64,000 nt of DNA from the IMG/VR virus record IMGVR_UViG_3300027708_000015. One strand, written 5' to 3'. The notes beneath the pieces are model-generated. The model worked only from the letters and a program-made list of their open reading frames with translations, searched no databases and was not told where the DNA came from. This stretch comes from a virus. Its lineage: Duplodnaviria; Caudoviricetes. The position numbers and the translations under genes are program-made. Positions 1 through 45,428 of the stretch are shown one piece after another (within the stretch, counting starts at the first letter, position 1; every line of letters starts with the position of its first letter).

Positions 1-247
1 ACACTAGTTTTTCTTGATCTAAACTTACAGTTTCTGTTGGCGGAACTGGTAATGCATTAATAATCATATTGACAGTGCTGGCTGACTGCCCGCTAGGAAC
101 TGCCCATACTGTCACTGTGTCTGTAACACTGCTACTGGTGTTGCAAATTATAATTGAAGTAATGGCATTTCCAATGCTGGGTGCTGTGACCGCAGGTAGT
201 GTTACTACTAATGGTGAAGTTGTTATCTGTTGTGCATTAAGTGCCAT
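1..247 (-). CDS. Partial small virion-associated hypothetical protein (runs off the left edge)
   Basis: Not in the ORF track. Manual translation from ATG at 247: MALNAQQITTSPLVVTLPAVTAPSIGNAITSIIICNTSSSVTDTVTVWAVPSGQSASTVNMIINALPVPPTETVSLDQEKLV, open to the window edge. Starts 9 nt after the stop of 257..1654, same strand. Confidence 0.7.
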   Translation of the reverse strand, partial: MALNAQQITTSPLVVTLPAVTAPSIGNAITSIIICNTSSSVTDTVTVWAVPSGQSASTVNMIINALPVPPTETVSLDQEKLV

Positions 248-256
248 GTTGTGTCC

Positions 257-4428: not shown

Positions 4429-4446
4429 ATCGTATTTACCCAAAGA

Positions 4447-4470
4447 AAAAGGCTACCGAAGTAGCCTTTT
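4447..4470 (-). terminator. Rho-independent terminator after major capsid gene
   Basis: AAAAGGCUAC-UUCG-GUAGCCUUUUUCUUU on the minus strand; A/T runs on both sides suggest it is bidirectional. Confidence 0.9.
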
Positions 4471-4498
4471 CTATATAACAAACCTCTTGGTTATCAAA

Positions 4499-29457: not shown

Positions 29458-32400
29458 TGGCTAACAATGTTATACCACCCGGAGGATTAGGTGTAAATTT
29501 CCTTCCGGACTTTTATCAAACCCCTGCCAATAAAAAATTCCTGCAGGCCACGATTGACCAACTCTACCAACCAGGAACTATTACCAAGACTAGCGGATTT
29601 ATCGGACGAGAAAACGCCAAGGCTGCCAACGGATCAGATATCTATGTAAAAGCATCCACTCGAGATAGACAGAACTATCAGCTGGAGCCGGGTATCGTAG
29701 TAAAAGATTCTTTAGCCAATGTAACGTTTTTTAGAGACTATCAGGATTACATCAATCAGTTGGGAGTATTTGGAGCAAATACCAACAACCATGCTCGTCT
29801 AAACAAGCAAGAATTATACAGTTGGGATCCACATATTGACTGGGATAAGTTTGTAAACTTTCAAAATTACTATTGGTTACCTTACGGACCTACCACTGTA
29901 AGAATTTATGGACAGCAAGCAACAGCTATCAGCACATACACTGTAGAACTACAGTCAGAAGGCAATGTCAATGAATATCTGTTTACACCAAATGGACTGA
30001 CACTCAATCCTACTATCAAATTATATAGAGGTCAGACTTACAATTTTAATGTTAACAGCCCAGCCAACCCATTCAGTATCATGCTGTCTAGAGCAACAGG
30101 TACTTCTACCCGTTATTCTCAAGGTGTTATTAACAATGGAGTTACTCAAGGAATATTAAAATTCACAGTGCCTATAAATGCCCCCGACCTACTGTATTAT
30201 CAAAGTGAGTCAGATATAGCAGTAGGCGGAGCAATAGAAATTTATGATGTGCTTGCTGATTCCTATATTGATATAGATAATGAAGTGCTTGGTAAAAAGA
30301 AATACACATTGAGCAATGGCACTGAATTGAGCAACGGTATGAAGGTTGCGTTCGGTGGAAATATCACTCCGGAAAAATACGCTAAAGGTAGTTATTATGT
30401 AGAAGGTGTAGGCACTGCAATCAAATTAGTCCCCGAAACTATTCTAGAAATAGTAAGTCCTTATACCACTAATCAGGCTATAGAATTTGGCGCAAGTGCA
30501 TTTGATACAGCACCGTTTGATGATGCCACAGGTTTTGCTACCTTAAAGGACTACATAGTAATCAATCGTGCCAGCAAGGATCATAATCCATGGACACGAT
30601 ACAATCGTTGGTTCCATAAAGATGTGATAGAAACATCGGCAAAATACAACAATGACACTGTATCGTTGGATCAAAATGCTAGAGCAGTACGACCAATCAT
30701 AGAGTTTGAAGCAGATCTCAAACTATTCAACATGGGAACTTCTGCTATAGTTGATATTGATCTAGTTGATGATTTTACTACAGATGTATTTTCAGTCATT
30801 GAAGGCACATCTGGGTACAACATTGACGGTGTACAATTGGTACAAGGGCAAACAATATTATTTTTAGCCGATACAGATCCTTTGGTAAAAAATAATATAT
30901 TCCAAGTTGACTTTGTCAACATACAAGGAACCACACGTATAGCATTGACTCAAGTGGCAACTCCTGTAGAAAATCAAGCAACAATAGTTCTACAAGGCGT
31001 TAAGAATCAGAGTCTAATGTACTGGTTCAATGGCACTACCTGGATCAAAGCGCAACAGAAAACTTCAATAAATCAAGCTCCGTTGTTTGATATATTTGAC
31101 GACAACGGTATCAGTTACAGTAATCAATCAACTTACGTGGGCACTACGTTTGTAGGAACAAAAATATTTTCCTATGAACAGGGCACGGGAATTTCTGATA
31201 CAGTTTTGGGATTCCCGTTAACATATCTAAATGTTTCAAACATTGGAGATATAGTGTTCAGCTTCAATTTAGCTACTGACACTTGGCAATGGAAGAAGAA
31301 CAGTGTAGCAGTCACCGGGCATGTTAATGCTGGCTATCTATTGAGTCAGGATTATGCTGGCAACGCCAAATATGTCAACGGCTGGCAATTGTGCAATACT
31401 TCAACTATTCAAGCCGCTATCCGAATTTATAAAAATTCTGGATTAAAAAATAAATTTGACATTGATGTATATGACAACATTGTCAATCTCAGCGATCTAC
31501 AAGTAAAAGTATACATCAACGGAGTCCGACTAGACAAAAGCGCATGGTCGTTAGTAAAAGGAACTGCCTATTATCAAGTAGTGCTATCAACGCCAATGCA
31601 CTTAACTGATGTTTTGACAATTAGAAGTTTTTCAGCTCAGCCTATAAACGCAAACGGCTATTACGAAATTCCATTAAACTTGCAAAATAATCCATTGAAC
31701 GATGATATCACTACATTTACATTGGGTGAAGTTACAGATCATGTAAACAGTATCATAGAAAATATACCGGACTATGTAAGTATTAGAAATTCAGGAAATG
31801 TTTCTCAGTACGGAACAAAGTTTGTTCAGCATAGTGGCCCGTTGAGCCTTGCATTATACCACATTACTTCAGAATCAAATAATGTTATCAAGGCATTAGA
31901 AACTGCTAGAGATGATTACAATTCATTCAAACGAAATTATATAAACATTGCTGGTTCATCAGGTATAGATGCAAATCCGATTCAACTAACTGAATTATTT
32001 TTACAGAAGCTAAATGCAAATAAACCTAATACTGCGCCCTATTATTTTAGTGACATGGTACCGTACGGTGCTAGTACAACTACAAATTTGGAAGTAGTTG
32101 ATTATCGAATCAAAACATATCCTCTTACCTCTGTGTTCTCATTGGATGTTTTAAGTAATAAAGCTGTAGGTGTTTATCAAACAAAGATAGCAACCGGTAC
32201 CAAATCACAGCTAGTACATGGGCGAGATTATACATTTAGCAATCAAGGATTTGTAGTAATTGATGATAGTGTATCGTTATCCAACGGAGATACAATTACC
32301 ACAGTTGAATACGACAGCACAGATGGATGTTATATTCCAGCAACTCCTACCAAGCTAGGCATGTGGCCTGCATATGTTCCGCAAATCTATCTAGACACCA

Positions 32401-35400
32401 CACTGGTTAATCCACAGAATGTAATACAAGGACACGACGGCAGTATTATTCTAGCTTATAATGACTTTAGAGATGATTTGATATTAGAATTAGAATTACG
32501 TATATACAACAACATCAAGGTCAAATATGACCCTACTATTTTTGACAGTACAAATATAGTTCCTGGATATAATAGAACAAATGATTATTCTTTGTCAGAG
32601 TTTAATCAAGTATTAGCCCCTGCATTCTATCAATGGTCGGGCTTGGTTGGTATTGATTTTACTTTGCCTTTGAACTACGATAGAGGAAATCAGTTTACAT
32701 TCAACTACTCCCAGGATGTTGCTCCAAATCAATCTCCAACTCCTGGCTTCTGGAGAGGAATATATCGTTGGATGTTTGATACTGATCGTCCACATCTGTG
32801 TCCGTGGGAAATGTTGGGGTTCAGTACAGAACCAAGTTGGTGGTCTAGTGTTTACGGTCCAGCGCCCTACACCAGCGACAATTTGGTATTATGGGACGAT
32901 TTATCTACCGGCACTGTAAGAAAACCAGGCAGTGCGTCTGTAGTACTAAGCAAATATGCTAGACCCATATTAAAAGGGCACATTCCAGTTGACCAGGACG
33001 GACATTTATTAAGTCCTATACGTTGCGGATTAGCTCGGGGATCAGAAACACCAAGCATTGGTAATGATTTTGTGTTTGGTGATGTTAGCCCTGTAGAAGC
33101 AACATGGCGACGTAGTAGCTATTATCCATTTAGTGTAATAGTAGCCTCAATGTTGTTGACTCCCGCCAGCACATTTGGTCTGCTACTAGATCGATCAAGA
33201 ACAGTTCGAAATTTGGCCGGACAACTTGTTTACTCTGAAACAAATTTACGTATCAAACCCGCAGACGTAATGATTCCCAGCGTGTATTCTAGTGCAACTA
33301 GAGTACAAACTGCGGGCATTGTTAATTATATTGTTGACCTTATTTCAAATATTATTTTTAGTAATAATCAAGAATCATACAAGTCTTATCAATCAAACTT
33401 GGCTTTGCTAACTGCTCAGCTAAGTTATAGAGTGGGAGCATTTACTAATCAAGATCAATTTAATTTATTGTTAGAAAGTAAAACACCATCAGCAATTGGC
33501 AATGTTTTCATCCCACAAGAAAGTTATAAAATATTTTTAAATTCCTCTAGCCCCACACAGAAAATTACCTACAGTGGTGTGATAATTACCAAGTTATCTA
33601 CTGGATTTGAAATAAAAGGTTATAGTAAAACCCAACCTTACTTCAACTATTATGAGCATATTGAATCAGGAGTTACTATAAATGTTGGCGGAATAAGCGA
33701 AAGTGTAGTAACTTGGACTCGAGGCCAGCAGTATATTGTTGGACAAGTGGTTCAATACAACAACGTATATTATAGGACCAAAATTAAAAATACAGCAACA
33801 CTTGAATTTGAATCAAAATATTTTGTAGCATTGCCTAGTCTTCCTATAGTAGGCGGAGTAAGTGCAACATTTAGAGACAAGTGGAATCAAACTAGTGTTA
33901 AAGTAGCACCATATGGTAAACAGTTTTCAACAGTGCAGTCAGTGGTGGATTTCTTGTTGGGATATGAGCAGTATCTGATCAGTCAGGGCTTTGTCTTTAA
34001 TGATTTCAATAAAAAATTATCGTCAGTAGCTAATTGGTCTACTAGTGCTAAAGAATTCATGTTCTGGACCCTACAAAACTGGTCAAGCGGTAATACTGTA
34101 TGGACCGAATGGGCGCCAAATCAACCATATAACTACGGCACAATAGTGCGTTACAACGGCAGTTACTATAGTGCTCAATACAATATTCTTGCGTTGGGTC
34201 AGTTTGAATTTGAACAATGGACATTGTTACCTGGATTAAGCAATGTGGGAAGTAGTGTAATAAGTCTGAGTCCTGCAGCCAATGGTATAACTTTCAATAC
34301 TACTCTAGCGGTAGTGGACGATATTAAAAATCCATTCAACCGTTATGAAATATTCAAAGTAGACAGTACACCAATACACCCTAATGAACTAGACAGCTAT
34401 AGAATAGGCAATACAATAACATATTCCCCACGTACTGCTGATGGAATTTACTGTGCAAGTTTTTATCTAATACAAAACGAACATGTGGCGATTGTAGACA
34501 ACATGGATATATTCAACGATGTTATCTATAATCCCCCAAGCGGATATCGTAGAGATCGTATTAAACTTTCAGGATATGTTACAGAAGGTTGGTACGGCGG
34601 ATTAGATATTCCGGGATTTATCTTCGATGGTGCAAAAGTACAGGGTTGGCAGCCGTGGCAAGATTATAACATGGCCGATATTATCGCCTATCAAGGATAC
34701 TACTACAGTGCCAATTCGTTTATTGCAGGGTCTGCAACATTTGTGTCATCACAGTGGAATCGATTATCAAAGCAACCATCAGCACAACTACTGCCAAACT
34801 GGACCAATACAGCTACCCAGTTTACAGATTTTTACGGTCTTGACATTGATAATTTCAATACACAGCAACAGGTATTTGCACAACACCTAATTGGGTATCA
34901 AACTCGACAGTATCTGCATAATATCATACAAGATCCTGTAAGTGAATTTAAATTTTATCAAGGAATGATCCGAGATAAGGGCACTCAGAATGTACTAAAT
35001 CACTTGTTCGGAGTTCTCAATGCCGACAAAGTAGAGAGTCTGATGTTTTATGAAGAGTGGGCGATCCGTGTTGGACAGTACGGTGCTTCAAGTGCATTTG
35101 AGGATTTTGAAGTAATCATCGATCAAGCACAGTATAAAAATAATCCGCAGGGCTATTATCTAACAAATTCTTCAAAGTCTGATGTCAGCTATGTTATAAA
35201 TCAACTAGTACCTAATGATATCTATCTGAAACCGTTGGGATATAATAGTAAACCGTTTCCAGTTTTAGAAAAATCTAACCAACTACTGCGTAGTGCTGGG
35301 TATGTCAATCCAAAAGATATCACAATTCAGTTAGGCAGTCTTTCAGAGATAGTGAATTATAGTGTAGCCGCCTTGGCCAACGGACAGTATGTGTCTGTAG

Positions 35401-38400
35401 CATTTAGTGCCAACACTTGGAATGTTTACAGATTTACAGATTTACAGATTCGAGTACTGAATGTAACTTATGTGTTGGAAACAAAAACACTAACCATTAC
35501 TACACAAAATCTATTACCTCTCATGGCAGGAGATTATATCGGTATTGCGCAAGTTGCTAGCATTACAGGATTTTATCAAGTAGCCAGTGTATCATTGAAT
35601 TCATTCACAGTTGTCAGTGCATCGGCTTTGGTAGTGTCCGCGCCCTTCACACAATCCGGACAAGTTGTAGTCTATGCATTAACACCTCAACGTACCACAT
35701 CTATAGATACTCTAGATACAGTGTCTTTGACACATTTACAACCTGGAACATTGGTATGGACTGACGATTCGGGCAACGGCAAGTGGGCAGTATGGCAGTA
35801 CAATAGCGTGTACTCTACACAGAACATACCAGATGTTTCGCCAGCAACTAATTTTAACTTTGGTTCTAGTTTATCGATCAATAGTCAATCAACAATTTTA
35901 GCAGTCGGCGATAGTCAGGGAAGCCTACTGATGTATGACAAGGCAGGATCATCTGTTCCATGGATACGCCGAGGATCAATATCCGCACCGTTTGTGTCAA
36001 AAAGCGGTCCGATAAGTCTAAATCAACTAGCTACGATATCTGCACTGAGTGCCGACGGTACATGGCTAGTAACAGGAAGTCCTACTGCAGGATATGCATC
36101 AACCACGTATCGAGGTGTCTATAATAGCAGTTCAACCTACGCTATTAATAGTATAGTTTCTGTTGTAAATTCTACAAATAATTATTCTTATTATCAAGCC
36201 ATGAAACCGGTGCCAGCCAGCACTCCGCCCACTGATAGGAGTTATTGGTTTATATCTCCGTATATTCCAGTCAGCCAACTGCTAGGTACAGATTCTACAC
36301 TAGCAGGACAAGGCGTTGTCAGCATATACTTAAAAGACTCAAACAACAACTACAGTCTAGTTGACACTATTATCAGTCCGCTGCCAGCGGCTGGCGAGCA
36401 GTTTGGATCTAACATTGTGTTTGGCAACAACAGTCTTTATATAGGTGCTATTGGATATAATAGCGGCGCTGGCCGAGTATATAAATTATCATATATCACA
36501 ACACCACAAGTTACTACGCAGTACAATCCTGTAGGAAGCTCGGCAAGCACGTTAGCAGTCAGCACAACTAGCGGCATACGTCCTGGAATGATAGTACAAG
36601 GTACAGGATTTACTAAAGGCCAAACAGTACAGGCAGTGCTTACTACAACAACATTGCGGTTAAGCGGAAGCCCTGACACAGGAATTACACCTTCTGGAAT
36701 ACTTAATTTTGTAACCAAAAGTTGGACATATGATTGGAGTGAAAACTACATAGGAACCCCATCAAGTGCTTTGGGTTCTACAATAGCAATCAGTGCCGAT
36801 GCTACAACACTTGCAATTAAATCGATTGGCAAAGTCAACATTTATAAAAATACCGGCAGTGGTATGACCATGTTACCAGCAGTGCTAGGTAGCGATGCAT
36901 ATTTTGGGATGGGACTATCTGTGTCAGCAGACGGATCTTATATTGCTATTTCTAATGATACTGTTGGCCCTGTAAGCCAATCAGGCGGCGTGACGATATA
37001 TTATTATACTAATGGGGCCTATACTCAGTACCAAAGTTTGGTCAATCATCGGCCAGAGACTAATGGACTGTTTGGAAACAAATTAGCGTTCATGTCCGAC
37101 GACACGATTGTGGTATATAGCAAAAACGGTGATAGCCAGATCAGCACACCGTTTGATAATAATACAACAACATTTGATAAACGATCTACAAATTTTGTCA
37201 CACTAGAAGTTAACAGCGGTCGTGTTGATATCTATGACAGATATAAAACCAAATGGGTGTTTGGAGAAAGTCTAATATCGACCAATTTACCAAGTGACGG
37301 ATATGGAACAGGATTCGCAGTCGGAACAAATCAAGTTGTAATAAGTGCGCCAAACGCTACTGATCAAACTCTTGCATCGGGATTGGTATATAGTTACGGT
37401 AAGACAGCTGACGCATATACTTGGTCGCAGTATCAACAACAAGATTTAGTTGCTGATATCAGCAAAATTAAAAAAGCTTTCTTGTATAATAGAAAATTAG
37501 GAACCTTGGTAACTTATCTCGATATAATTGATCCGTTACAAGGAAAAATCGCTGGTCCTGCACAAGAGGAAATATCTTATCAAACTTTTTATGATCCTGC
37601 AAGTTATTCGTATAGTGATGGTACAACAGCCGCAACAGTTGATGTTGATGCGTTCTGGGAAGATCTGCCTATAGGACAGTTGTGGTGGAATTTGGCCACT
37701 ACAAAATTCTTGGAAAATAATTTTGAAGATCCGGCATATAGAACTAGTGCTTGGAATACCCTAGCAAAAGGGGCCAGTGTAGACATATACGAATGGGTAT
37801 CATCAAATTTATTACCAGCCAACTGGGATATTCAAGCAGACACTCCAGCTGGTTTAGCTAAGGGCATAAGTGGAAAGAGTCTATACGGCAATTCTGCATA
37901 TAGTGTAAAACAAAATTATGACAACATTAGCAAAACGTTTTACAGCACATACTATTACTGGGTTAAAAATAAACTAGTTGTTCCATCAAATGTAGCCGGA
38001 AGACACATGGCATCTCGTGATGTTGCATTATTAATAGCCAATCCGAGAGCTCAAGCATACACTTGTTTAGCTATAACTGGAGCAGACTCGTTTAGTTTAA
38101 TCAATGCTTCCCAATATCTAAAAAATACTGATGTTGTATTGGCCATTGAATACTGGACTATTGATAAAACAGATCAAAATGTACATAGCCAGTGGAAATT
38201 AATCAGTAATGATACATTGGTAAATCTTCCCTTGCATATTGAACGCAAGTGGATCGACAGTTTGTGCGGAGTTGACAGTGAAGGTCGTCTAGTCCCAGAT
38301 CCTCAGTTACCGGCTAAATTACGATACGGTATCGAAAATAGACCTCGTCAGGGTATGTTTGTCAATCGTATAGAAGCATTAAAACAATTTATAGAGCGTG

Positions 38401-41400
38401 TTAATCTTCTATTGATAGGATATCAGGTAACTGAATCTAAAGACATTACTCCGTTAGAAGGCTACGATCCTATACCAAATGTGTTGCATGGCCTGTATGA
38501 CAAGGCAGTTGACACTTATGCAGAGCTTGTATATGCTAATATCGGATCTTTTTCGTCTGCATCTGTTACCCCAGTCATTGTGTCCGGCAGTGTGGTAGGT
38601 ATCGTAATTATAAATTCTGGTAAGGGATATGTAAATGCTCCCTACATCACAATAGCAGGATCGGGCAAGGGTGCAGTGGTTCAATCAACAATCAATTCTC
38701 TGGGACAACTCACCGGCGCAAAAATAATCAACGGAGGAGAAGGTTATAATATCAATACACTATGCTCAATCCGTAGCTATTCAGTTCTAGTGGTAAGTGA
38801 TGAAACTGTAAACAACACTTGGAGTATATATTCTTATGACACTGTAACTAGTATCTATTCTAAAGTGTTGACACAGTCTTATGATGTTAGAAACTATTGG
38901 ACCTATGCTGATTGGTATGCCACCGGATACAGTCAATTTACTGCTCCGGATATCACTGTTCAAAATTTTGTAGATCTAAATACTGCTCAAGACACGTTCT
39001 TCAGATTAGCACGTAATGGAATAGAGCAACCTGGGCAATTGATCAAGGTACTCAACGGCAATGCTGGTAAATGGGTTTTATTGTACAGATACTCAACTAA
39101 AATTACAGTAGACTGGACTCAAAGCTATAGAGTGATAGGAATACAAGACGGTACTATACAGTTTAATAGCGATCTATACAAATTTGCCGGAACTGTTATC
39201 GGTTATGATTCTAACATTTTTGACACTGCTGACTTTGACGTGCAGGCCACTAAAGAATTAAGAATTATATTAAACACTATCAAGGACAAAATATTAATTG
39301 ATGATCTGAAACAGCAATATTTAGATTTATTTTTAAGCAGTTTACACTATGCTCACAGTGAACAACCTTTTATTGATTGGGCCTTCAAAACCAGTTTCAT
39401 CCGTGCAACTCACACAGTTGGCGCACTGAACCAACCTGTTAACTATCCTGTAGATAATCTAAGAAATTTCCAAGATTACGTTGCAGAAGTTAAACCTTAC
39501 AGAACTAAAGTTAGAGAGTATATAAGTCAATATACCGGAATAGACATTGATCAAAGTGCTGTTACAGATTTTGATTTGCAACCCAACTACTCGAATAATC
39601 AAATTAAACCAGTTGAGGCAGTGTATTCTAATAACAGTATTAGTGTAGTAGATCCTACAATACAGACTTATCCCTGGAAGTTCTGGTATGACAACGTTGG
39701 ATTCAGTATCACCGAAATATTGATAGTCAACGGCGGTAGTGGATATGCAAATATTCCGCAAGTGATAATCAGTGCACCAACTGGTTCCAATGCTGTACCT
39801 GCCACAGCAGTGGCTTATATTGCCAATGGACAAGTTAATAGAATAGTTTTAACCAATGTTGATCAGTACGGAAGTGCTGGCAAAGGTTACTTATCAGCCC
39901 CAACGATAACAATTGACGGCGGATTGGAAATTGGCGGAGTGCCTGCTACAGCAGTCGCAATCATTGGGAATGGACTAGTTCGTTCAAATCTTACAGAATT
40001 GCGATTTGATCGAGTCAATCAAACGTACTATTTGGCAAATTTACAGCAAATAGACAAATTTACTGGGTCGGGATCCAAGTTGCAGTTTGTGTTGACCTGG
40101 GCTCCGGACATACGTGTAGGACAATCTAGTGTTACGGTTAATAGCATTCCTGTTCTTAGAGAATTATATACTCTAAAAGTAGTTAAATCAACTGTGTCTG
40201 GCTACACACAATATACAGGAACAATCACGTTCGTAACAGCTCCGGCTCTAAATACGGCCATAGTGGTTACGTATAATAAATCTCAATCAGTATTGACAGC
40301 CGCTGATAGAATTCAATATTATTATAATCCCACAACCGGACAGTTAGGCAAAGATCTAACACAATTAATGACCGGTGTTGACTATGGCGGAGTTATAGTC
40401 AGTGGACTGGGATTCAACATTGCAGGCGGGTGGGGTGCTAGTCCGTATCTGACAGATTCGTGGGACAGCCGTCCTGTTACATTTAATGATTATGCAGTCC
40501 AAGTAGCTGGTAACACGCATGTATTCACATTGCCTTACACTCCGGCTACAGGCACATCAATTAATATATATTTTGCAAGACAGAAGAAGGTATCGTACGT
40601 GTCAGACGGTGCCAAATTGCTGTATGCGTATGATTCTGCATTACAGAATATTTCTGTAAATGTAGTGTCAACTAGTACAACATCTGCAGTTACTACGTCA
40701 TATATTACAGCAGAAGTAATCAGCGGAACAACTGTCAAAAGCGGCGGTTATACATTATTGGTTGCCGATACTACTGGAATAGTGTCGGGTATGATTGTCA
40801 AAGGCACAGGTTTTACAAAAAATCAAAAGGTTGTAAATGTAATAAATTCAACAACACTGACTATAGACAATGTGGCCGACGGATTTCCAGTAAACAGTGA
40901 ACCATTAACGTTTTCTAATTTGCCCGGTAGTTTTATATTGACAGTTGCCAGTACTGCTGGCTTAGCAATTGGAGATGTAGTTACAGCCTCTGGCATATAC
41001 AGCACAGCATTTGCTTACGGCACAACAATTACAAAAATTAATTCATCTAAGTCTGTAACCCTTAATCAGATTCTTTATGCGACACTTGCCGCTGGAACAA
41101 CTGTAACATTTACACAAAATCTTATACAACCTAATGATGTGGTAATCAACGCTTCAGGTACTGTTCAGCTGTTACAAGCCTATCCTGCAGGCAGTGTAAT
41201 CACTGTGGTCGGACAGCAACTTCCTGTAAGATTGGATGACCCCAATTACGGATTAGTAGCTACAAACAATTGGGTACCTGGCACACAATATGCTGTCAAC
41301 AACTTAGTATTGGTAGATGGCATCTCATATGTTTGTCGTAAAGTCAATACCAGCGGCACAAAATTTAATTTAGATTTTGCACTGGGATACTGGAGTTTGA

Positions 41401-44400
41401 TAAATTCCAATGCTATTATTCCAACGCCGGTTCTTGGAGTAAGTGTAATCACATCAGTTATAGAAGGCGGAGCTGGCGGTGCTAGTCTTTCTATTACCTT
41501 TGCTGGGTCAGTTGTAGGCGGCGAAGCAGCCACTATTGAAGACACTGTGCTCGATGGCGGCATTATAAATGATTCTCCTACCAATGTGATAGAAATACCT
41601 GCTACATTCACAGTATTAGAGGGAGATGAATTTATTCTAAGAGAAGCATCTAGTGATGGTTCAGTACCAACACCAGATGCAAACTATGACAGTAAAATCG
41701 ATGGTGGAAATTTAGCCTATTCTACTGCTACAGGTATAGCCGCAGATGATATCATTCTCGACGGAGACGGATTCGTAACCCCAACATCTAGTCCGGCCAC
41801 TGAAGAAGTGATGCCGGGACAAGTAGTAGATACTCTGGCAATCAAAGTGTATGACAAATCACCGTCCGGTGCCGCAAGCATTAAGGTTAACTCTTACTTG
41901 ACCGATGGCGTAAATAAAGTGTTTGCTATAGGGCAAACTCCAAACAGTCCTCGAGCTGTCATAGTGAAATTAGGCAGTAATATACAAACATACACGACAG
42001 ACTATACTGTTGATTATTCAAATAAACTAATACGTTTTAAAAATATTCCTACAGTAGGGCAGTCTGTCACTGTGTTTAGTATAGGGTTTAATGGAAAAAA
42101 CATTTTAGATCTTGACTATTTTATCGGCGACGGGACAACAACTGAATTTATAACAAGAGCTCCTTGGTTAACTTCTCTTACCCCGCTGGTTTATGTAAAT
42201 GGGGTAACAGCGGCAGTTGAGTTATTTCAAACTGATACTACTTATGCATTCTCTCATGCAGTCGGACTTAGATTTGTAACTCCACCTGCTATCGGAACAC
42301 TAATAAATTATATCATTGTTAGCGGAAGTCAACAGACTTTTGCAATTACAAAAACTGAAATAGTTAGTACGACTGGCACAAGCACTTACAAATTACAATA
42401 TCCAATAGGTAAATCTTTACCAAACGAAAGTAGTATGATTGTTAGAGTTGATCAATCAATACTGCAAGCACCAACTAACATATATTTCACTATCAGCAAT
42501 CTCAACTACAAATACACTGTTGATCCAGCTAAGGCATTGCCTTATTCAACTTCAATTGGCAATATATATGTGTATGCTGGCGGTAATCAGTTGGTGTTTG
42601 GCAACGATTACACAATAGATCCGTCAGGTATCTCAGTGACAATTACTGCAGATGTTTACACAACTTATGCAGGCAAACAACTAGTTGTAAGTATTATTTC
42701 AAATAATGGATATACATATAATCCTAATTCAAATGAAATAACTTTTGCGAGCGGAGTTATAGTCGGAAGCTCACAAACAGTTGAGGTAGTCAGCAACTAC
42801 TTGCATGAGACGTTGGACATACAACGTACCGATGTGCAGTATTCTGCTTCATATACATTGACTCCGGGAACTGTGGCCTTTTACCAATATAATGCAATCG
42901 GTGGTGGCCTGATTAGGCTTGATAGACCAGTAATTGATGCTGGATATGTATGGGTAATTAAAAATCTAGTTTTGTTATCTCCGGGAGCCGATTATAAACT
43001 CAATGACGATTTACAAAGTATTCGTTTGACGCAGCCAATAAGTCTATCTGATAATTTAGAAATTCTCACATTTAGTAGCAATGTACTTCCGTCGTCGGGA
43101 ATCGCATATATGCAGTTTAAAGACATGCTTAATAGAGTAACCTACAGACGACTAAATGCCAACAAGAAAACAAGTCTTGTGCAAGCATTGAAATGGAACG
43201 ATACACAAATAGTAGTAAGCGATGCGTCTGTACTAGATCAACCAAACGCCGCAAATAATAATCCCGGAGTAATAGAAATTCGAGGCGAACGCATAGAGTA
43301 TTTTCAAATAAACTATGCTACAAATACTCTGAGTCAACTGCGTAGGGGTACACTAGGAACAGGCGTTTATAATATGAATCTTGAAGGATCATTTGTACAG
43401 AATATTAGTTCAAGTGAAGCAATTCCCTACACAGATACTACTATCACTGGAACTATACTGTCTTCAGGACTTGGAGTTCCAAGAGTTACAGGATCTATTA
43501 TATCAACTACGACTAAAGTGGATCAGCCTATATCTAGTTTTTCTATCGAGTCAACAACTGGGTTATTAAAGGTAACAACAGGAAACTATTATGTTGGACA
43601 GGTTATAGCTGTGTCTGGCTTTCCGATCCATGCTAGTCTTACAGGCGTAACAGCTCTAAACTCAACTGGACAGTTTAGTTGTATTGCTTCTCCGACCTCA
43701 TTCTTAGTGGGTCAGTCAATTATTATCAACAGTTCTACAACTAATGCAATACTTTCTAATGTCAGCATAATTGGAACTTCCGGACAGTTTAGTTGTTTGT
43801 CAAGCCCTACTCCAATGATTGTTGGTCAACAAATAACTATGACAGGGCTAGTAGTTGTAACTCAATACCTATCAGGCGTAATTATTACTGATACCAATGG
43901 GGGTTTTAGTTGTACCTCTTCAACAGTGCTATTAGCTCCGGGACAAATTGTTACAATTTCTGGAACTTTTGGTTCAGGGGCCAGTGTTGGCAGCATAATT
44001 GACTATGCCAGTCCGTCAAGCTATACCATTACTGCTACCAACGGCAGAACTACATTTTCTCTAGCAAAGATTGGAGGCGGTCAGGTAACAACGACAGTGG
44101 GGATTCCGGCCAACCTAACATATGTGTTGACAGCTGGTTCAGGATCTGTTCAAAATTATGTAAATCCAACCACATATGTTATTAGTGAGACCGACGGATC
44201 AACAACATTTACTCTAAAAACTCTATCTGGTAATGCCTTAGTAACTACCCAAGGAATTCCGGCCACAGCCTCTACAATTCCTACCGGATTGAAACTAGTA
44301 TTGGTATCTGGTACTATTGCTGGATACTCAGGAACACAAACTAGGTATTATATTTCAGCTACTAATGGATCGACAAGATTTACATTGTCGTCAACTTATC

Positions 44401-45428
44401 CAGCAGTAACTCCTATAGTTACCACTCTAGGCAGTATGTATGGCCAACAGTATAGTCTGAGCGGAGCAGGATTTAACAATTATCTCAATCCCACAAACTA
44501 TTATGTAGTTGACACAAACGGAACAAATCTAATTACTTTGTCCACAGCACCAAATGGATCTCCGATTGCTTCTGCAGTGGGAACACCTTCGGGACTGACA
44601 GCCAATGTGGTTATCAGTATTGTAACTTTGAATAGCAACGATGGCTTATCTACAGGACAAAAATTGGTTGTTACAGGTGAGGGCGGCGGCGGCCTAAAAC
44701 CGGGATCCTATTATATTGTTAACCCATCTGTGGGTCCAAATCAAGTCACACTGGCCAGCAGTCTTGCTCTAGCACAAGCAGACAAACCTATTAACACTCT
44801 AACCAGTTCCACGCTATCAAATACCACATTCAGCTCAGGCGGGCAGGATATTGGTATAGGATTTGTCCCAGACAATGCTGATCAAATTGATGTATTTGTT
44901 GGCGGATACAATACCACAATATGGGAACCCAACACCAAATACAGTATAGGACAGCTTGTTTCAACAGGTCCTTATACCTATCGATGCATAGTAGACCATA
45001 CTAGTTCAACAGCATTTGGTAAAGATCTTGCCAACTGGTATTTCTTTGTAGAAAATACACGATTGAAGAAATCTTCCTACAGTATATTTGATGTAAATAA
45101 AGCTCCTTATAGCCCAGCCGGTGACAGAGATTTCCCAGCAGATTTTATTGTTGACGGTGTTACAGCAACCGTTACACTAACAAATCCGCTAAGTCTTGGC
45201 ACACAGGTTACTGTGATTAAGAAGACAGGTATTGCCTGGGACGGCAATAAAAATGCTCCAGTTAACATACTAAATGATAGTAGTGCTATTGCTAATTTTA
45301 TCAAGGCAGCTCCTGGAATTTGGTACACTGAATACAAACAAATAAGTAATAGTACAATCAAAGGAAATTTTGACAATACTACTGTGTTATTTGACAATAA
45401 TAATACAATAACATTCGATCAAGGATAA
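29457..45428 (+). CDS. Giant baseplate wedge/structural protein (gp7-like scaffold with many inserted adhesion-type domains)
   Basis: Uninterrupted 5323-aa ORF directly after gp6 (TAATG overlap). Contains CBM5/12-like W..G..Y..G..V.Y repeats, FG-GAP-like propeller blades, a cupredoxin-like segment, GGSGY repeats and nested beta-modules. Confidence 0.75.
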   Translation: MANNVIPPGGLGVNFLPDFYQTPANKKFLQATIDQLYQPGTITKTSGFIGRENAKAANGSDIYVKASTRDRQNYQLEPGIVVKDSLANVTFFRDYQDYINQLGVFGANTNNHARLNKQELYSWDPHIDWDKFVNFQNYYWLPYGPTTVRIYGQQATAISTYTVELQSEGNVNEYLFTPNGLTLNPTIKLYRGQTYNFNVNSPANPFSIMLSRATGTSTRYSQGVINNGVTQGILKFTVPINAPDLLYYQSESDIAVGGAIEIYDVLADSYIDIDNEVLGKKKYTLSNGTELSNGMKVAFGGNITPEKYAKGSYYVEGVGTAIKLVPETILEIVSPYTTNQAIEFGASAFDTAPFDDATGFATLKDYIVINRASKDHNPWTRYNRWFHKDVIETSAKYNNDTVSLDQNARAVRPIIEFEADLKLFNMGTSAIVDIDLVDDFTTDVFSVIEGTSGYNIDGVQLVQGQTILFLADTDPLVKNNIFQVDFVNIQGTTRIALTQVATPVENQATIVLQGVKNQSLMYWFNGTTWIKAQQKTSINQAPLFDIFDDNGISYSNQSTYVGTTFVGTKIFSYEQGTGISDTVLGFPLTYLNVSNIGDIVFSFNLATDTWQWKKNSVAVTGHVNAGYLLSQDYAGNAKYVNGWQLCNTSTIQAAIRIYKNSGLKNKFDIDVYDNIVNLSDLQVKVYINGVRLDKSAWSLVKGTAYYQVVLSTPMHLTDVLTIRSFSAQPINANGYYEIPLNLQNNPLNDDITTFTLGEVTDHVNSIIENIPDYVSIRNSGNVSQYGTKFVQHSGPLSLALYHITSESNNVIKALETARDDYNSFKRNYINIAGSSGIDANPIQLTELFLQKLNANKPNTAPYYFSDMVPYGASTTTNLEVVDYRIKTYPLTSVFSLDVLSNKAVGVYQTKIATGTKSQLVHGRDYTFSNQGFVVIDDSVSLSNGDTITTVEYDSTDGCYIPATPTKLGMWPAYVPQIYLDTTLVNPQNVIQGHDGSIILAYNDFRDDLILELELRIYNNIKVKYDPTIFDSTNIVPGYNRTNDYSLSEFNQVLAPAFYQWSGLVGIDFTLPLNYDRGNQFTFNYSQDVAPNQSPTPGFWRGIYRWMFDTDRPHLCPWEMLGFSTEPSWWSSVYGPAPYTSDNLVLWDDLSTGTVRKPGSASVVLSKYARPILKGHIPVDQDGHLLSPIRCGLARGSETPSIGNDFVFGDVSPVEATWRRSSYYPFSVIVASMLLTPASTFGLLLDRSRTVRNLAGQLVYSETNLRIKPADVMIPSVYSSATRVQTAGIVNYIVDLISNIIFSNNQESYKSYQSNLALLTAQLSYRVGAFTNQDQFNLLLESKTPSAIGNVFIPQESYKIFLNSSSPTQKITYSGVIITKLSTGFEIKGYSKTQPYFNYYEHIESGVTINVGGISESVVTWTRGQQYIVGQVVQYNNVYYRTKIKNTATLEFESKYFVALPSLPIVGGVSATFRDKWNQTSVKVAPYGKQFSTVQSVVDFLLGYEQYLISQGFVFNDFNKKLSSVANWSTSAKEFMFWTLQNWSSGNTVWTEWAPNQPYNYGTIVRYNGSYYSAQYNILALGQFEFEQWTLLPGLSNVGSSVISLSPAANGITFNTTLAVVDDIKNPFNRYEIFKVDSTPIHPNELDSYRIGNTITYSPRTADGIYCASFYLIQNEHVAIVDNMDIFNDVIYNPPSGYRRDRIKLSGYVTEGWYGGLDIPGFIFDGAKVQGWQPWQDYNMADIIAYQGYYYSANSFIAGSATFVSSQWNRLSKQPSAQLLPNWTNTATQFTDFYGLDIDNFNTQQQVFAQHLIGYQTRQYLHNIIQDPVSEFKFYQGMIRDKGTQNVLNHLFGVLNADKVESLMFYEEWAIRVGQYGASSAFEDFEVIIDQAQYKNNPQGYYLTNSSKSDVSYVINQLVPNDIYLKPLGYNSKPFPVLEKSNQLLRSAGYVNPKDITIQLGSLSEIVNYSVAALANGQYVSVAFSANTWNVYRFTDLQIRVLNVTYVLETKTLTITTQNLLPLMAGDYIGIAQVASITGFYQVASVSLNSFTVVSASALVVSAPFTQSGQVVVYALTPQRTTSIDTLDTVSLTHLQPGTLVWTDDSGNGKWAVWQYNSVYSTQNIPDVSPATNFNFGSSLSINSQSTILAVGDSQGSLLMYDKAGSSVPWIRRGSISAPFVSKSGPISLNQLATISALSADGTWLVTGSPTAGYASTTYRGVYNSSSTYAINSIVSVVNSTNNYSYYQAMKPVPASTPPTDRSYWFISPYIPVSQLLGTDSTLAGQGVVSIYLKDSNNNYSLVDTIISPLPAAGEQFGSNIVFGNNSLYIGAIGYNSGAGRVYKLSYITTPQVTTQYNPVGSSASTLAVSTTSGIRPGMIVQGTGFTKGQTVQAVLTTTTLRLSGSPDTGITPSGILNFVTKSWTYDWSENYIGTPSSALGSTIAISADATTLAIKSIGKVNIYKNTGSGMTMLPAVLGSDAYFGMGLSVSADGSYIAISNDTVGPVSQSGGVTIYYYTNGAYTQYQSLVNHRPETNGLFGNKLAFMSDDTIVVYSKNGDSQISTPFDNNTTTFDKRSTNFVTLEVNSGRVDIYDRYKTKWVFGESLISTNLPSDGYGTGFAVGTNQVVISAPNATDQTLASGLVYSYGKTADAYTWSQYQQQDLVADISKIKKAFLYNRKLGTLVTYLDIIDPLQGKIAGPAQEEISYQTFYDPASYSYSDGTTAATVDVDAFWEDLPIGQLWWNLATTKFLENNFEDPAYRTSAWNTLAKGASVDIYEWVSSNLLPANWDIQADTPAGLAKGISGKSLYGNSAYSVKQNYDNISKTFYSTYYYWVKNKLVVPSNVAGRHMASRDVALLIANPRAQAYTCLAITGADSFSLINASQYLKNTDVVLAIEYWTIDKTDQNVHSQWKLISNDTLVNLPLHIERKWIDSLCGVDSEGRLVPDPQLPAKLRYGIENRPRQGMFVNRIEALKQFIERVNLLLIGYQVTESKDITPLEGYDPIPNVLHGLYDKAVDTYAELVYANIGSFSSASVTPVIVSGSVVGIVIINSGKGYVNAPYITIAGSGKGAVVQSTINSLGQLTGAKIINGGEGYNINTLCSIRSYSVLVVSDETVNNTWSIYSYDTVTSIYSKVLTQSYDVRNYWTYADWYATGYSQFTAPDITVQNFVDLNTAQDTFFRLARNGIEQPGQLIKVLNGNAGKWVLLYRYSTKITVDWTQSYRVIGIQDGTIQFNSDLYKFAGTVIGYDSNIFDTADFDVQATKELRIILNTIKDKILIDDLKQQYLDLFLSSLHYAHSEQPFIDWAFKTSFIRATHTVGALNQPVNYPVDNLRNFQDYVAEVKPYRTKVREYISQYTGIDIDQSAVTDFDLQPNYSNNQIKPVEAVYSNNSISVVDPTIQTYPWKFWYDNVGFSITEILIVNGGSGYANIPQVIISAPTGSNAVPATAVAYIANGQVNRIVLTNVDQYGSAGKGYLSAPTITIDGGLEIGGVPATAVAIIGNGLVRSNLTELRFDRVNQTYYLANLQQIDKFTGSGSKLQFVLTWAPDIRVGQSSVTVNSIPVLRELYTLKVVKSTVSGYTQYTGTITFVTAPALNTAIVVTYNKSQSVLTAADRIQYYYNPTTGQLGKDLTQLMTGVDYGGVIVSGLGFNIAGGWGASPYLTDSWDSRPVTFNDYAVQVAGNTHVFTLPYTPATGTSINIYFARQKKVSYVSDGAKLLYAYDSALQNISVNVVSTSTTSAVTTSYITAEVISGTTVKSGGYTLLVADTTGIVSGMIVKGTGFTKNQKVVNVINSTTLTIDNVADGFPVNSEPLTFSNLPGSFILTVASTAGLAIGDVVTASGIYSTAFAYGTTITKINSSKSVTLNQILYATLAAGTTVTFTQNLIQPNDVVINASGTVQLLQAYPAGSVITVVGQQLPVRLDDPNYGLVATNNWVPGTQYAVNNLVLVDGISYVCRKVNTSGTKFNLDFALGYWSLINSNAIIPTPVLGVSVITSVIEGGAGGASLSITFAGSVVGGEAATIEDTVLDGGIINDSPTNVIEIPATFTVLEGDEFILREASSDGSVPTPDANYDSKIDGGNLAYSTATGIAADDIILDGDGFVTPTSSPATEEVMPGQVVDTLAIKVYDKSPSGAASIKVNSYLTDGVNKVFAIGQTPNSPRAVIVKLGSNIQTYTTDYTVDYSNKLIRFKNIPTVGQSVTVFSIGFNGKNILDLDYFIGDGTTTEFITRAPWLTSLTPLVYVNGVTAAVELFQTDTTYAFSHAVGLRFVTPPAIGTLINYIIVSGSQQTFAITKTEIVSTTGTSTYKLQYPIGKSLPNESSMIVRVDQSILQAPTNIYFTISNLNYKYTVDPAKALPYSTSIGNIYVYAGGNQLVFGNDYTIDPSGISVTITADVYTTYAGKQLVVSIISNNGYTYNPNSNEITFASGVIVGSSQTVEVVSNYLHETLDIQRTDVQYSASYTLTPGTVAFYQYNAIGGGLIRLDRPVIDAGYVWVIKNLVLLSPGADYKLNDDLQSIRLTQPISLSDNLEILTFSSNVLPSSGIAYMQFKDMLNRVTYRRLNANKKTSLVQALKWNDTQIVVSDASVLDQPNAANNNPGVIEIRGERIEYFQINYATNTLSQLRRGTLGTGVYNMNLEGSFVQNISSSEAIPYTDTTITGTILSSGLGVPRVTGSIISTTTKVDQPISSFSIESTTGLLKVTTGNYYVGQVIAVSGFPIHASLTGVTALNSTGQFSCIASPTSFLVGQSIIINSSTTNAILSNVSIIGTSGQFSCLSSPTPMIVGQQITMTGLVVVTQYLSGVIITDTNGGFSCTSSTVLLAPGQIVTISGTFGSGASVGSIIDYASPSSYTITATNGRTTFSLAKIGGGQVTTTVGIPANLTYVLTAGSGSVQNYVNPTTYVISETDGSTTFTLKTLSGNALVTTQGIPATASTIPTGLKLVLVSGTIAGYSGTQTRYYISATNGSTRFTLSSTYPAVTPIVTTLGSMYGQQYSLSGAGFNNYLNPTNYYVVDTNGTNLITLSTAPNGSPIASAVGTPSGLTANVVISIVTLNSNDGLSTGQKLVVTGEGGGGLKPGSYYIVNPSVGPNQVTLASSLALAQADKPINTLTSSTLSNTTFSSGGQDIGIGFVPDNADQIDVFVGGYNTTIWEPNTKYSIGQLVSTGPYTYRCIVDHTSSTAFGKDLANWYFFVENTRLKKSSYSIFDVNKAPYSPAGDRDFPADFIVDGVTATVTLTNPLSLGTQVTVIKKTGIAWDGNKNAPVNILNDSSAIANFIKAAPGIWYTEYKQISNSTIKGNFDNTTVLFDNNNTITFDQG

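What the first reader, a model, noticed from the sequence alone, without database searches (positions are those of the whole stretch)
43530..44612. 'Russian-doll' nested domains: four N-halves followed by four C-halves in the giant baseplate protein
Seen: the 465-aa protein carries one intact module, made of an N-half (ISGVIIAGTAGQFTC..LFVGMQVTVSG) and a C-half (GSITGYSNPTIYQISATN..TFTL...IVTTAG). The 5323-aa protein has four consecutive N-halves: ISSFSIESTTG..YYVGQVIAVSG (43530-43619), LTGVTALNSTGQFSC..FLVGQSIII (43638-43730), LSNVSIIGTSGQFSC..MIVGQQITMTG (43752-43847) and LSGVIITDTNGGFSC..LAPGQIVTISG (43869-43964). Four consecutive C-halves follow: GSIIDYASPSSYTITATNGRTTFSL, GSVQNYVNPTTYVISETDGSTTFTL, GTIAGYSGTQTRYYISATNGSTRFTL and GFNNYLNPTNYYVVDTNGTNLITL (43965-44612). 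Inference: each domain was inserted into the same loop of the previous one (N1-N2-N3-N4-C4-C3-C2-C1), giving an out-and-back rod or antenna. This is an unusual recursive way of lengthening a virion appendage.
Basis: partly seen in the sequence, partly recalled or inferred. Interest (0 to 1): 0.75.

Follow-up and report, generated by a model that had tools for sequence, protein, structure and literature searches.

The report
Nested beta-barrels in giant baseplate protein
Near the end of a 5,323-residue baseplate protein of an uncultured jumbo phage, four copies of one small beta-barrel domain sit one inside another like Russian dolls; many phage tail proteins use this build, but I found no paper describing it for phages.

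Summary
Residues 4692-5054 of the giant ORF (29457-45428, +) hold four N-halves followed by four C-halves of a ~90-aa module. The same module occurs intact in the 465-aa protein.

A profile built only from intact modules of other proteins matches the N-halves at positions 3-36 and the C-halves at 37-90. The module folds as a small closed beta-barrel (pLDDT 90) of the E1-FCCH / EF-Tu domain II kind.

In an AlphaFold2 model of the array (pLDDT 81, pTM 0.61), single solved barrels superpose on N4+C4, N3+C3, N2+C2 and N1+C1. No row of either table has the ends that parallel pairing predicts.

In about 150 other protein clusters, every block with equal numbers of N and C halves reads as a balanced-bracket word. 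These include NNCC, NNNCCC, N5C5, NNCNCC and N6C5NCC.

Orthologous giant proteins carry zero, one or four modules at this exact site.

The nested reading is therefore supported. The "rod/antenna" shape and any adhesive function remain inferred.

The principle is known from cyanobacterial RNA polymerase Si3, and from T4 sheath and flagellin (recalled, not checked here). This scan has already noted similar nests in cyanophage giant proteins on other DNA.

The parts
29457..45428 (+). Giant 5323-aa virion protein that hosts the nest, directly after a T4 gp6-type wedge gene
   Evidence: ORF. It matches phrog_10938 'virion structural protein' at E 2e-153, and residues 155-265 match phrog_677 'baseplate wedge tail fiber connector'. 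Gene order matches Agrobacterium phage Atu_ph07, where wedge gp181 is followed by the 4449-aa structural protein gp180. Fifty-seven giant homologues of 3081-5428 aa were found.
43470..44831 (+). Variable cassette (residues 4672-5125): 20-aa linker, four-level nest and one trailing divergent barrel. Many orthologues lack it.
   Evidence: BLASTP: in P0010, P0011, P0017, P0018, P0022 and others, query 4300-4671 and 5126-5323 align to adjoining subject residues. P0031 has a single module at this site.
43530..43619 (+). N1, N-half of the outermost barrel (residues 4692-4721). It is the most divergent copy and lacks the GQFSC motif.
   Evidence: N-half HMM E 3e-7; intact-module profile positions 4-34, E 9e-3. 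It pairs with C1 in the model, where barrels align on ranges 1-6..368-373.
43638..43730 (+). N2 (residues 4728-4758)
   Evidence: It pairs with C2: model range 40..317-319, for example EF-Tu domain II with Z 6.4, rmsd 2.7 and 72 residues aligned.
43752..43847 (+). N3 (residues 4766-4797)
   Evidence: It pairs with C3: model range 77-79..264-265, for example the E1 FCCH fragment 4p22_B with Z 6.3, rmsd 2.7 and 78 residues aligned.
43869..43964 (+). N4, N-half of the innermost barrel (residues 4805-4836)
   Evidence: N4+C4 is a contiguous intact module (profile 3-87, E 7e-27). Model range 115..210, for example the T1 tail tube FCCH-type domain with Z 6.5 and UBA6 211-292 with Z 6.3.
43989..44138 (+). 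C4 (residues 4845-4894), which closes the innermost barrel
   Evidence: C-half HMM E 5e-17.
44142..44300 (+). C3 (residues 4896-4948)
   Evidence: C-half HMM E 4e-17; module profile 37-81. Its long loop, model residues 249-258, has pLDDT below 50.
44310..44468 (+). C2 (residues 4952-5004)
   Evidence: C-half HMM E 2e-16; module profile 39-89.
44469..44618 (+). C1 (residues 5005-5054), which closes the outermost barrel
   Evidence: C-half HMM E 1e-17; module profile 43-90.
44622..44831 (+). Trailing un-nested segment of similar sequence pattern (residues 5056-5125, L.TGQKLVVTG-GGGG-..GSYYIV..NQVTLAS)
   Evidence: Only weak likeness to the module profile (E 0.02-0.6). It is conserved together with C1 in several unrelated proteins, which match query positions 345-460. 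It was not folded.
689..964 (-). The single intact module of the 465-aa protein (ORF 257-1654, residues 231-322)
   Evidence: Module profile E 2e-33. AF2 model pLDDT 89.9, pTM 0.79.
25945..29457 (+). T4 gp6-type baseplate wedge gene just upstream of the giant gene (context)
   Evidence: phrog_10646 E 1e-294. It is 34-37% identical to wedge proteins of the jumbo phages Phosso, Atu_ph07 and phAPEC6.

Best explanation
Residues 4692-5054 of the giant baseplate-region protein form four complete copies of one small six-stranded beta-barrel of the E1-FCCH / EF-Tu domain II kind. Each copy is inserted into the same Gly-rich loop of the copy outside it, between the strand ending 'V.VSG' and the strand starting 'GSI.GY'. 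The chain therefore runs N1-N2-N3-N4, closes barrel 4, and then closes barrels 3, 2 and 1 on the way back. This much is shown or predicted.

The rest is inferred. Neighbouring barrels are joined by two chain crossings, with linkers of 6-9 aa outward and 0-1 aa on the return, so the stack should be stiffer than beads on a string. The chain also ends where it began. That lets a multi-domain protrusion sit in an internal position of a host protein without pulling the host apart.

The whole cassette is an optional surface decoration. Orthologous giant proteins carry zero, one or four barrels at this site, and a tail sheath protein of another phage carries a four-level nest. Its most likely role is a projecting stalk on the baseplate rim that contacts the cell surface or neighbouring virion parts. 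No binding specificity can be read from the sequence.
For: - Half-domain complementarity: a profile of intact modules matches N-halves at positions 3-36 and C-halves at 37-90. Any N joined in silico to any C gives a full-length 60-90 bit match.
- Fold of the intact module: AF2 pLDDT 89.9 and pTM 0.79 from 144 sequences. The split point is the loop 35-40 between strands 29-34 and 41-42.
- Fold likeness: UBA6/Uba1 FCCH, the T1 and FCWL1 tail tube outer domains, EF-Tu domain II and the endosialidase barrel (Foldseek TM ~0.5; VIA Z 5.5-6.5).
- Pairing: in the AF2 model of the nest (pLDDT 80.6, pTM 0.61), single barrels align on 115..210, 77-79..264-265, 40..317-319 and 1-6..368-373. These are exactly N4+C4, N3+C3, N2+C2 and N1+C1.
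- Grammar: of 35 blocks with more than two halves in non-redundant relatives, all 23 with equal N and C counts are balanced-bracket words. They include NNCC x6, NNNCCC x2, N4C4 x2, N5C5, NNCNCC, NNNCNCCC, NNCNCCNC, NCNNCC and N6C5NCC. The joint chance under random order is about 1e-13.
- Linker lengths are constant: N-to-C 5 aa, N-to-N 6-9 aa, C-to-C 0-1 aa.
- Depth varies at the orthologous site. The cassette is absent with a seamless junction in many giants, is one module in P0031, and is four in P0002 and P0005-P0009.
- P0064, a tail sheath protein (PF17482), carries an internal N4C4 nest.
- P0007-P0009 carry a further ~80-aa foreign domain inside the innermost barrel.
Against: - The pairing rests on a prediction from only seven aligned sequences. 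Just two of the five AF2 models were confident (80.6 and 79.8, against 51, 35 and 33).
- I could read only the first and last aligned residues, not contacts. The VIA Z-scores of 5-6.5 are below the level at which the tool says a match is more than a common arrangement.
- One row (4hiz_A, range 78..307) does not fit cleanly.
- Sequence-only pairing tests were weak. The mirror-profile score averaged about +0.5 z for nested. Mantel correlation was 0.77 nested against -0.22 parallel for this protein but reached by 3 of 24 permutations, and it was null or opposite for P0007, P0064 and P0079.
- In P0079 the N-halves are 81-85% alike while their C-halves are 50-59% alike. This does not fit growth purely by whole-module insertion.
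- Shape and function are untested.
Confidence: 0.82

Rival explanations
1. The barrels are completed between chains. N-halves of one copy of the giant protein pair with C-halves of a neighbouring copy in the baseplate (a domain swap), so the array is an oligomerisation zipper rather than an intrachain nest.
For: Baseplate wedge proteins are present in several copies per virion (established for T4). Some relatives show C-halves in excess of N-halves (P0059, P0062, P0065).
Against: N and C counts are equal within the single chain here and in all 23 balanced blocks. The monomer AF2 model closes all four barrels within one chain. The 5-aa N4-to-C4 linker equals that of stand-alone modules. The C-only protein P0080 is an N-terminally cut fragment.
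Confidence: 0.06
2. The halves pair in another order within one chain, for example parallel (N1 with C4, N2 with C3), giving an intertwined rather than a nested topology.
For: The profile HMM scores any N joined to any C as a full module (N4+C1 83 bits, N1+C4 70 bits). Sequence likeness therefore cannot choose the pairing. Mantel tests favour parallel pairing in P0067 and P0102.
Against: None of the 100 rows listed by VIA has the ranges that parallel pairing predicts (about 6..210, 40..265, 79..318, 115..370). All four nested ranges are seen repeatedly. Mixed words such as NNCNCC and N6C5NCC contain adjacent N-5aa-C units identical in spacing to free modules. That only makes sense if the innermost N and the next C pair. 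For this protein the Mantel r for parallel pairing is -0.22.
Confidence: 0.04
3. N-type and C-type segments are two different small independent domains that happen to form two tandem arrays. The 'intact module' is simply one of each side by side.
For: Tandem arrays of short beta-rich repeats are common in phage fibres. Each half has its own conserved motif.
Against: The intact module folds as one closed barrel with strands from both halves (pLDDT 90). Independent arrays would not keep N count equal to C count, nor give bracket-balanced mixed words. In the nest model no barrel match is confined to an N-array or a C-array alone.
Confidence: 0.03

Closest known systems
Si3 insertion of cyanobacterial RNA polymerase beta' (RpoC2)
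   Same: Copies of one small beta-rich domain are inserted recursively into one another. A 2026 survey of 48,551 insertion events singles out its eight domains in six nested levels as the most complex case (PMC13114784).
   Different: The fold is different (sandwich-barrel hybrid motif), as are the host (a cellular enzyme) and the role (trigger-loop and sigma contacts). Here the unit is an FCCH-like barrel in virion proteins. Depth varies between close orthologues, and the same grammar recurs in at least 150 protein clusters.
E1 FCCH-type barrel on the outside of T1-like siphophage tail tube proteins
   Same: It is a six-stranded closed antiparallel barrel that faces outward as a decoration (PMC13576161). 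The best structural matches of barrel 4 are the T1 tail tube (9l0f_G, residues 14-97, Z 6.5) and FCWL1 (9jlf_E, Z 6.2), together with UBA6 FCCH (Z 6.3, 21% identity).
   Different: Those proteins carry one terminal barrel, not a nest. No Pfam family, PF16190 E1_FCCH included, was reported for this module at E <= 0.1.
T4 tail sheath gp18 and flagellin (out-and-back, heterotypic nesting)
   Same: From my own knowledge, not checked here: in gp18, domain I is inserted in domain II, which is inserted in domain III. In flagellin, D0, D1 and D2 are each made of an outgoing and a returning segment, with the variable domain at the tip. [quoted passage not shown] The ESM Atlas shape search listed flagellin and FliD among the weak matches of the nest model (TM 0.27-0.32).
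   Different: The nested domains there are unrelated folds, and the depth is fixed at two or three. Here one fold is reused recursively and the depth is an evolving variable.
I-domain of P22-like coat proteins and EF-Tu domain II
   Same: The barrel fold is similar. The I-domain is itself an insertion domain on a virion surface. The module profile's best sequence hit in the PDB is the 126-aa 'Putative coat protein' chain 6mnt_A (E 0.046), which I take from memory to be a coat-protein I-domain.
   Different: The hit is not significant, and there is no nesting.

Membership tests
Recursive (nested) domain insertion, A1-B1-C-B2-A2 type | Each host domain is discontinuous in sequence and is completed by a segment that follows the inserted domain | tested here: met
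   The intact-module profile matches N-halves at positions 3-36 and C-halves at 37-90. In the AF2 model, single barrels align across ranges 78..265, 40..318 and 1-6..370 with only about 70 residues aligned. This rests on a prediction, not an experiment.
Recursive (nested) domain insertion, A1-B1-C-B2-A2 type | Last-opened, first-closed order (balanced-bracket words) across the family | tested here: met
   All 23 blocks with equal N and C counts are balanced words, including the mixed words NNCNCC, NNNCNCCC, NNCNCCNC and N6C5NCC.
Recursive (nested) domain insertion, A1-B1-C-B2-A2 type | Depth varies among homologues, so the insertion is an evolutionary event and not a fixed fold | tested here: met
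   Zero, one or four modules at the orthologous site; depths 1-6 elsewhere.
E1 FCCH domain (Pfam PF16190) / EF-Tu domain II-like closed barrel | Six-stranded closed antiparallel barrel that superposes on solved members | tested here: inconclusive
   Foldseek TM 0.45-0.53 at E 0.03-0.4. VIA Z 5.3-6.5 with rmsd 2.3-3.1 over 68-80 residues. These are below the Z of 8 that the tool gives as the level for more than a common arrangement.
E1 FCCH domain (Pfam PF16190) / EF-Tu domain II-like closed barrel | Sequence match to the Pfam model above its cut-off | tested here: not met
   No Pfam family was reported at E <= 0.1 for the 465-aa protein. For the 361-aa array the only row was a sub-threshold DUF5018-rel match. 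The likeness is of fold only.
T4 gp7-type baseplate wedge protein | Position after the gp6-type wedge gene and before gp8/9/10-type genes | tested here: met
   A gp5-like hub gene (23811-25451), a gp6-like wedge gene (25945-29457), the giant gene, then an 837-aa protein with connector-type matches to phrog_677 and phrog_958. Atu_ph07 has the same order.
T4 gp7-type baseplate wedge protein | Sequence or fold homology to gp7 itself | not tested
   PHROG matches are to phrog_10938 'virion structural protein', and to phrog_677 for residues 155-265. No comparison with T4 gp7 was run.

The most novel reading that the evidence does not exclude
Self-nesting of this barrel may be a general, heritable way for tailed phages to build stiff out-and-back stalks of adjustable length inside loops of baseplate, sheath and fibre proteins. 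Depth would set how far the innermost barrel, or a foreign domain grafted into it as in P0007-P0009, is held from the virion, and so would tune host-surface contact.
Probability: 0.3. Interest if true: 0.8.

Novelty: new variant of a known kind. Interest (0 to 1): 0.66.

Why it matters
Nested insertion of unlike domains is textbook. Repeated self-insertion of one domain is on record, in what I could search, mainly for cyanobacterial RNA polymerase Si3. Here the same principle appears in virion proteins with a different fold. It follows a strict bracket grammar across about 150 protein clusters, and depth changes between close orthologues (0, 1 or 4 at one site).

This offers a natural series for asking how a domain tolerates a whole copy of itself in one loop, and how such chains fold when the outer barrels can only close after the inner ones are made. 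It also raises the question of whether two-strand connections give stiffer projections than tandem repeats.

For annotation it is a practical warning. Domain finders that expect contiguous domains will call only the innermost copy and leave the rest as "unknown".

For design, the module is a candidate scaffold for displaying a binding domain at a set distance from a surface, while returning the chain to its starting point.

Tried and rejected
- Sequence-only pairing tests. A mirror-profile score against 160 free modules had little power: the true partner ranked at a median of 52 of 160. For nests it gave only a weak lean to nested pairing. Mantel correlation of N-N against C-C similarity was suggestive for this protein and for P0061 (28 of 5040 permutations) but null or opposite in others. 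I do not count these as evidence either way.
- HMM scoring of in-silico joined halves cannot tell pairings apart.
- I considered whether the 20-aa linker (4672-4691) supplies a first strand to the trailing barrel, which would make a fifth level. Joining them did not raise the score (3.0 against 4.4 bits), so this is dropped as unsupported.
- Pfam gave nothing at or above its cut-offs for the module (only a sub-threshold DUF5018-rel row for the array), the trailing barrel, the upstream 140 residues or the foreign insert of P0007.
- tblastn of the C-terminal 724 residues against GenBank phages found nothing. Atu_ph07's homologous giant gene has no module.
- There are no DNA-level repeats.
- Three literature searches for nested or recursive insertion in phage proteins found no description.
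- The ESM Atlas shape search gave only TM below 0.4.
- Complex prediction was not used, because no protein-protein binding claim is made.
Full report
**What is there**

The window holds a 5323-aa ORF at 29457-45428 (+). I built separate HMMs for the N-type and C-type segments. They find four N-halves at residues 4692-4721, 4728-4758, 4766-4797 and 4805-4836, and then four C-halves at 4845-4894, 4896-4948, 4952-5004 and 5005-5054. No other copy occurs in the giant protein. The 465-aa protein (257-1654, -) has one intact N+C unit at residues 235-321.

For a check that does not lean on the giant protein, I aligned 144 stand-alone modules. All but one come from other proteins; the exception is the 465-aa protein of this window (alignment A1). 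A profile of this alignment matches N1, N2 and N3 at profile positions 3-36. It matches N4+C4 at 3-87 (E 7e-27), and C3, C2 and C1 at positions 37/39/43 to 81/90 (E 6e-16 to 1e-11). The two segment types are therefore the two complementary parts of one module, always cut at the same point. The copies are only 21-50% identical to one another, and the DNA has no repeat longer than 17 nt. The array is old, not a recent duplication or an assembly artefact.

**What the module is**

AlphaFold2 on A1 gives a confident all-beta model (pLDDT 89.9, pTM 0.79). Strand 29-34 ('QVTVSG') is followed by the Gly-rich loop 35-40, which is the cut point, and then by the remaining strands. Foldseek against the PDB gives only weak matches (E 0.03-0.4, TM about 0.5), but they are consistent in kind:
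- the FCCH barrel of UBA6 and Uba1 (up to 21% identity);
- the inserted barrel of phage endosialidases;
- the N-terminal barrel of V-type ATPase subunits;
- outer domains of phage tail tube proteins.

The profile's best PDB sequence hit is the 126-aa 'Putative coat protein' chain 6mnt_A (E 0.046, not significant), which I take from memory to be a coat-protein I-domain. No Pfam family was reported for the module at E <= 0.1. A 2026 paper describes the FCCH-type six-stranded closed barrel as the outward-facing decoration of T1-like tail tube proteins (PMC13576161). I therefore file the module as an FCCH / EF-Tu domain II-like barrel at the level of fold only.

**Which halves pair**

AlphaFold2 on residues 4686-5062 with six relatives (A2) gave pLDDT 80.6 and pTM 0.61. 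Two of the five models were confident and three were not. Coordinates are not exposed to scripts, so I used structural alignment ranges instead.

VIA-align superposes single solved barrels of about 85 residues on the model, with 64-80 aligned residues at rmsd 2.2-3.1 Å. It reports four classes of model range:

| Model range | Example matches | Segments spanned |
|---|---|---|
| 115..210 | T1 tail tube Z 6.5; UBA6 211-292 Z 6.3 | N4+C4 |
| 77-79..264-265 | E1 FCCH fragment 4p22_B Z 6.3; EF-Tu domain II Z 5.9-6.1 | N3+C3 |
| 40..317-319 | EF-Tu domain II Z 6.4; Qbeta replicase-bound EF-Tu Z 5.6-5.7 | N2+C2 |
| 1-6..368-373 | siderophore-interacting protein barrel 8c4l_B Z 5.3; riboflavin synthase barrel Z 4.6 | N1+C1 |

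A model residue number is the protein residue number minus 4685, so the boundaries of these ranges are those of the segments named in the last column. No row has the ranges expected for parallel pairing (about 6..210, 40..265, 79..318). One row (4hiz_A, 78..307) is untidy. The caveats are real: the alignment is shallow, the Z-scores are below 8, and only the ends of each alignment are visible.

**Family-wide grammar**

A search of 1.84 billion representative proteins with residues 4670-5130 gave 163 hits at E <= 1e-3. I scanned the best 150 of these, together with the giant homologues, using the two half-HMMs. With the two-window parse (gap up to 60 aa) the counts were NC x134, NCNC x8, NNCC x6, NNNCCC x2, N4C4 x4 and N5C5 x1. 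There were also mixed words: NNCNCC (P0077), NNNCNCCC (P0075), NNCNCCNC (P0068), NCNNCC (P0072) and N6C5NCC (P0061).

re-parsed the same hits after removing close duplicates, splitting blocks at gaps of more than 30 aa. It found 35 blocks with more than two halves. All 23 with equal N and C counts are balanced-bracket words, with a joint chance of about 1e-13 under random order. The other 12 blocks fall into two kinds. Some are cut apart by a foreign insert longer than 30 aa; P0007, for example, is balanced as a whole. The rest lie in very complex or fragmentary proteins with excess C-halves (P0059, P0062, P0065, P0080, P0081). Spacing is constant: 5 aa from an N to the C that closes it, 6-9 aa between stacked Ns, and 0-1 aa between stacked Cs. 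Two independent tandem arrays would not keep their counts equal, nor produce words such as N(NC)(NC)C.

**Variation at the orthologous site**

Fifty-seven giant homologues were found.
- In many of them (P0010, P0011, P0017, P0018, P0022 and others), residues up to 4671 and from 5126 onward of the window protein align to adjoining residues. The sequence there reads '...IPYTDTT.T..I.SSGG....LGFIP...'.
- P0031 has exactly one module between those two flanks.
- P0002 and P0005-P0009 have the four-level nest plus a trailing divergent barrel (5056-5125).
- P0007-P0009 also carry an ~80-aa foreign domain inside the C-half of the innermost barrel.

Depth therefore varies as 0, 1 or 4 at one site. The whole cassette is an optional insertion at one fixed internal position of the host sequence. 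Elsewhere, P0064 is a tail sheath protein (PF17482 at its C-terminus) with an internal N4C4 nest.

**Context**

Upstream lie a gp5-like hub/lysozyme gene and a gp6-type wedge gene (phrog_10646, E 1e-294). Downstream lies a protein with connector-type matches. The giant protein matches phrog_10938 'virion structural protein'. The wedge protein is 34-37% identical to those of the jumbo phages Phosso, Atu_ph07 and phAPEC6. In Atu_ph07 the wedge gene is followed by a 4449-aa structural protein. The 465-aa protein is found on JGI metagenome contigs of up to 204,578 bp. The source is therefore an uncultured jumbo myovirus. 'Baseplate protein' is a reasonable inference, not a demonstrated fact.

**How it most likely works**

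Shown or predicted: there are four barrels, each closed by a returning segment, and all inserted in the same loop.

Inferred: each pair of neighbouring barrels is tied by two short chain crossings, so the stack should be stiffer than tandem repeats. Because the chain returns to its starting point, a long projection can be grown from an internal position of the host protein, which a linear array could not do. The optional presence of the cassette points to a surface decoration or contact organ. So do its placement on outward-facing virion proteins and the foreign domain grafted into the innermost barrel in P0007-P0009. No ligand can be named. The ESM Atlas shape search listed flagellin and FliD, classic out-and-back proteins, among its weak matches (TM about 0.3). 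That is a hint at most.

**Open points**

Sequence-based pairing tests were weak or mixed. In P0079 the stacked N-halves are 81-85% alike while their C-halves are 50-59% alike. This suggests homogenisation of the N array, or a growth route other than whole-module self-insertion.

**Comparison with what is known**

Recursive self-insertion is documented for Si3 of cyanobacterial RNA polymerase, which has eight domains in six levels and is the most complex case in a 2026 survey (PMC13114784). [quoted passage not shown] Three literature searches found no description of self-nested barrels in phage proteins. Earlier notes of this scan report the same kind of nest in cyanophage giant proteins on other DNA. 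I treat those as leads only.

**Verdict**

This is a new variant of a known architectural principle.

Noticed in passing
window 1695-3476 (-), 593-aa protein next to the 465-aa protein: It carries two clear tandem, un-nested copies of a diverged form of the same barrel, at residues 300-395 (E 7e-10) and 389-462 (a short-N form, E 7e-6). A third, marginal match (E 0.002, 4.4 bits) lies at 119-220. No PHROG or Pfam family matches. At least three proteins of this phage therefore use the module.
   Followed up: partly
P0007-P0009 (orthologues), aligned to window ~44060: An ~80-aa foreign domain with G-S-G-Y motifs is inserted after the 'TFTL' strand of the innermost barrel's C-half. This is a second insertion site in the barrel and one more nesting level. 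Pfam gives nothing for it.
   Followed up: partly
P0064 (1438 aa, from the representatives search): A phage tail sheath protein (PF17482 at residues 1329-1427) has a four-level nest of the same barrel at residues 246-593. The nest is therefore a portable decoration and is not tied to baseplate proteins.
   Followed up: partly
P0059, P0062, P0065 (2806-3607 aa and 1674 aa): These very complex proteins have 8-9 N-halves and 9-13 C-halves, with large gaps between them. The excess of C-halves may mean diverged N-halves that the HMM misses, or halves supplied by another gene, as an earlier scan note proposes for a Dit protein.
   Followed up: partly
window 43470 and 44831 (junctions of the cassette): Both ends of the 454-aa cassette carry the same 'SSG' tripeptide ('TILSSG|LGVP...' and '...NTTFSSG|GQDIG'), where orthologues without the cassette read 'T.SSGG'. 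This may be microhomology from the insertion event, or it may be chance.
   Followed up: no
window 29457-45428, elsewhere in the giant protein: Pfam finds CBM_5_12 carbohydrate-binding repeats, for example at residues 1551-1574 and 5156-5186. Orthologues that lack the nest often have an extra CBM5/12-like segment of 83-106 aa just after the same site. The region is therefore a hot spot for swapping surface modules.
   Followed up: partly
P0079 (858 aa, N5C5): N-halves 2-4 are 81-85% identical while the matching C-halves are only 50-59% identical. The two sides of the nest do not evolve in step, which may reflect gene conversion among the closely spaced N-halves.
   Followed up: no
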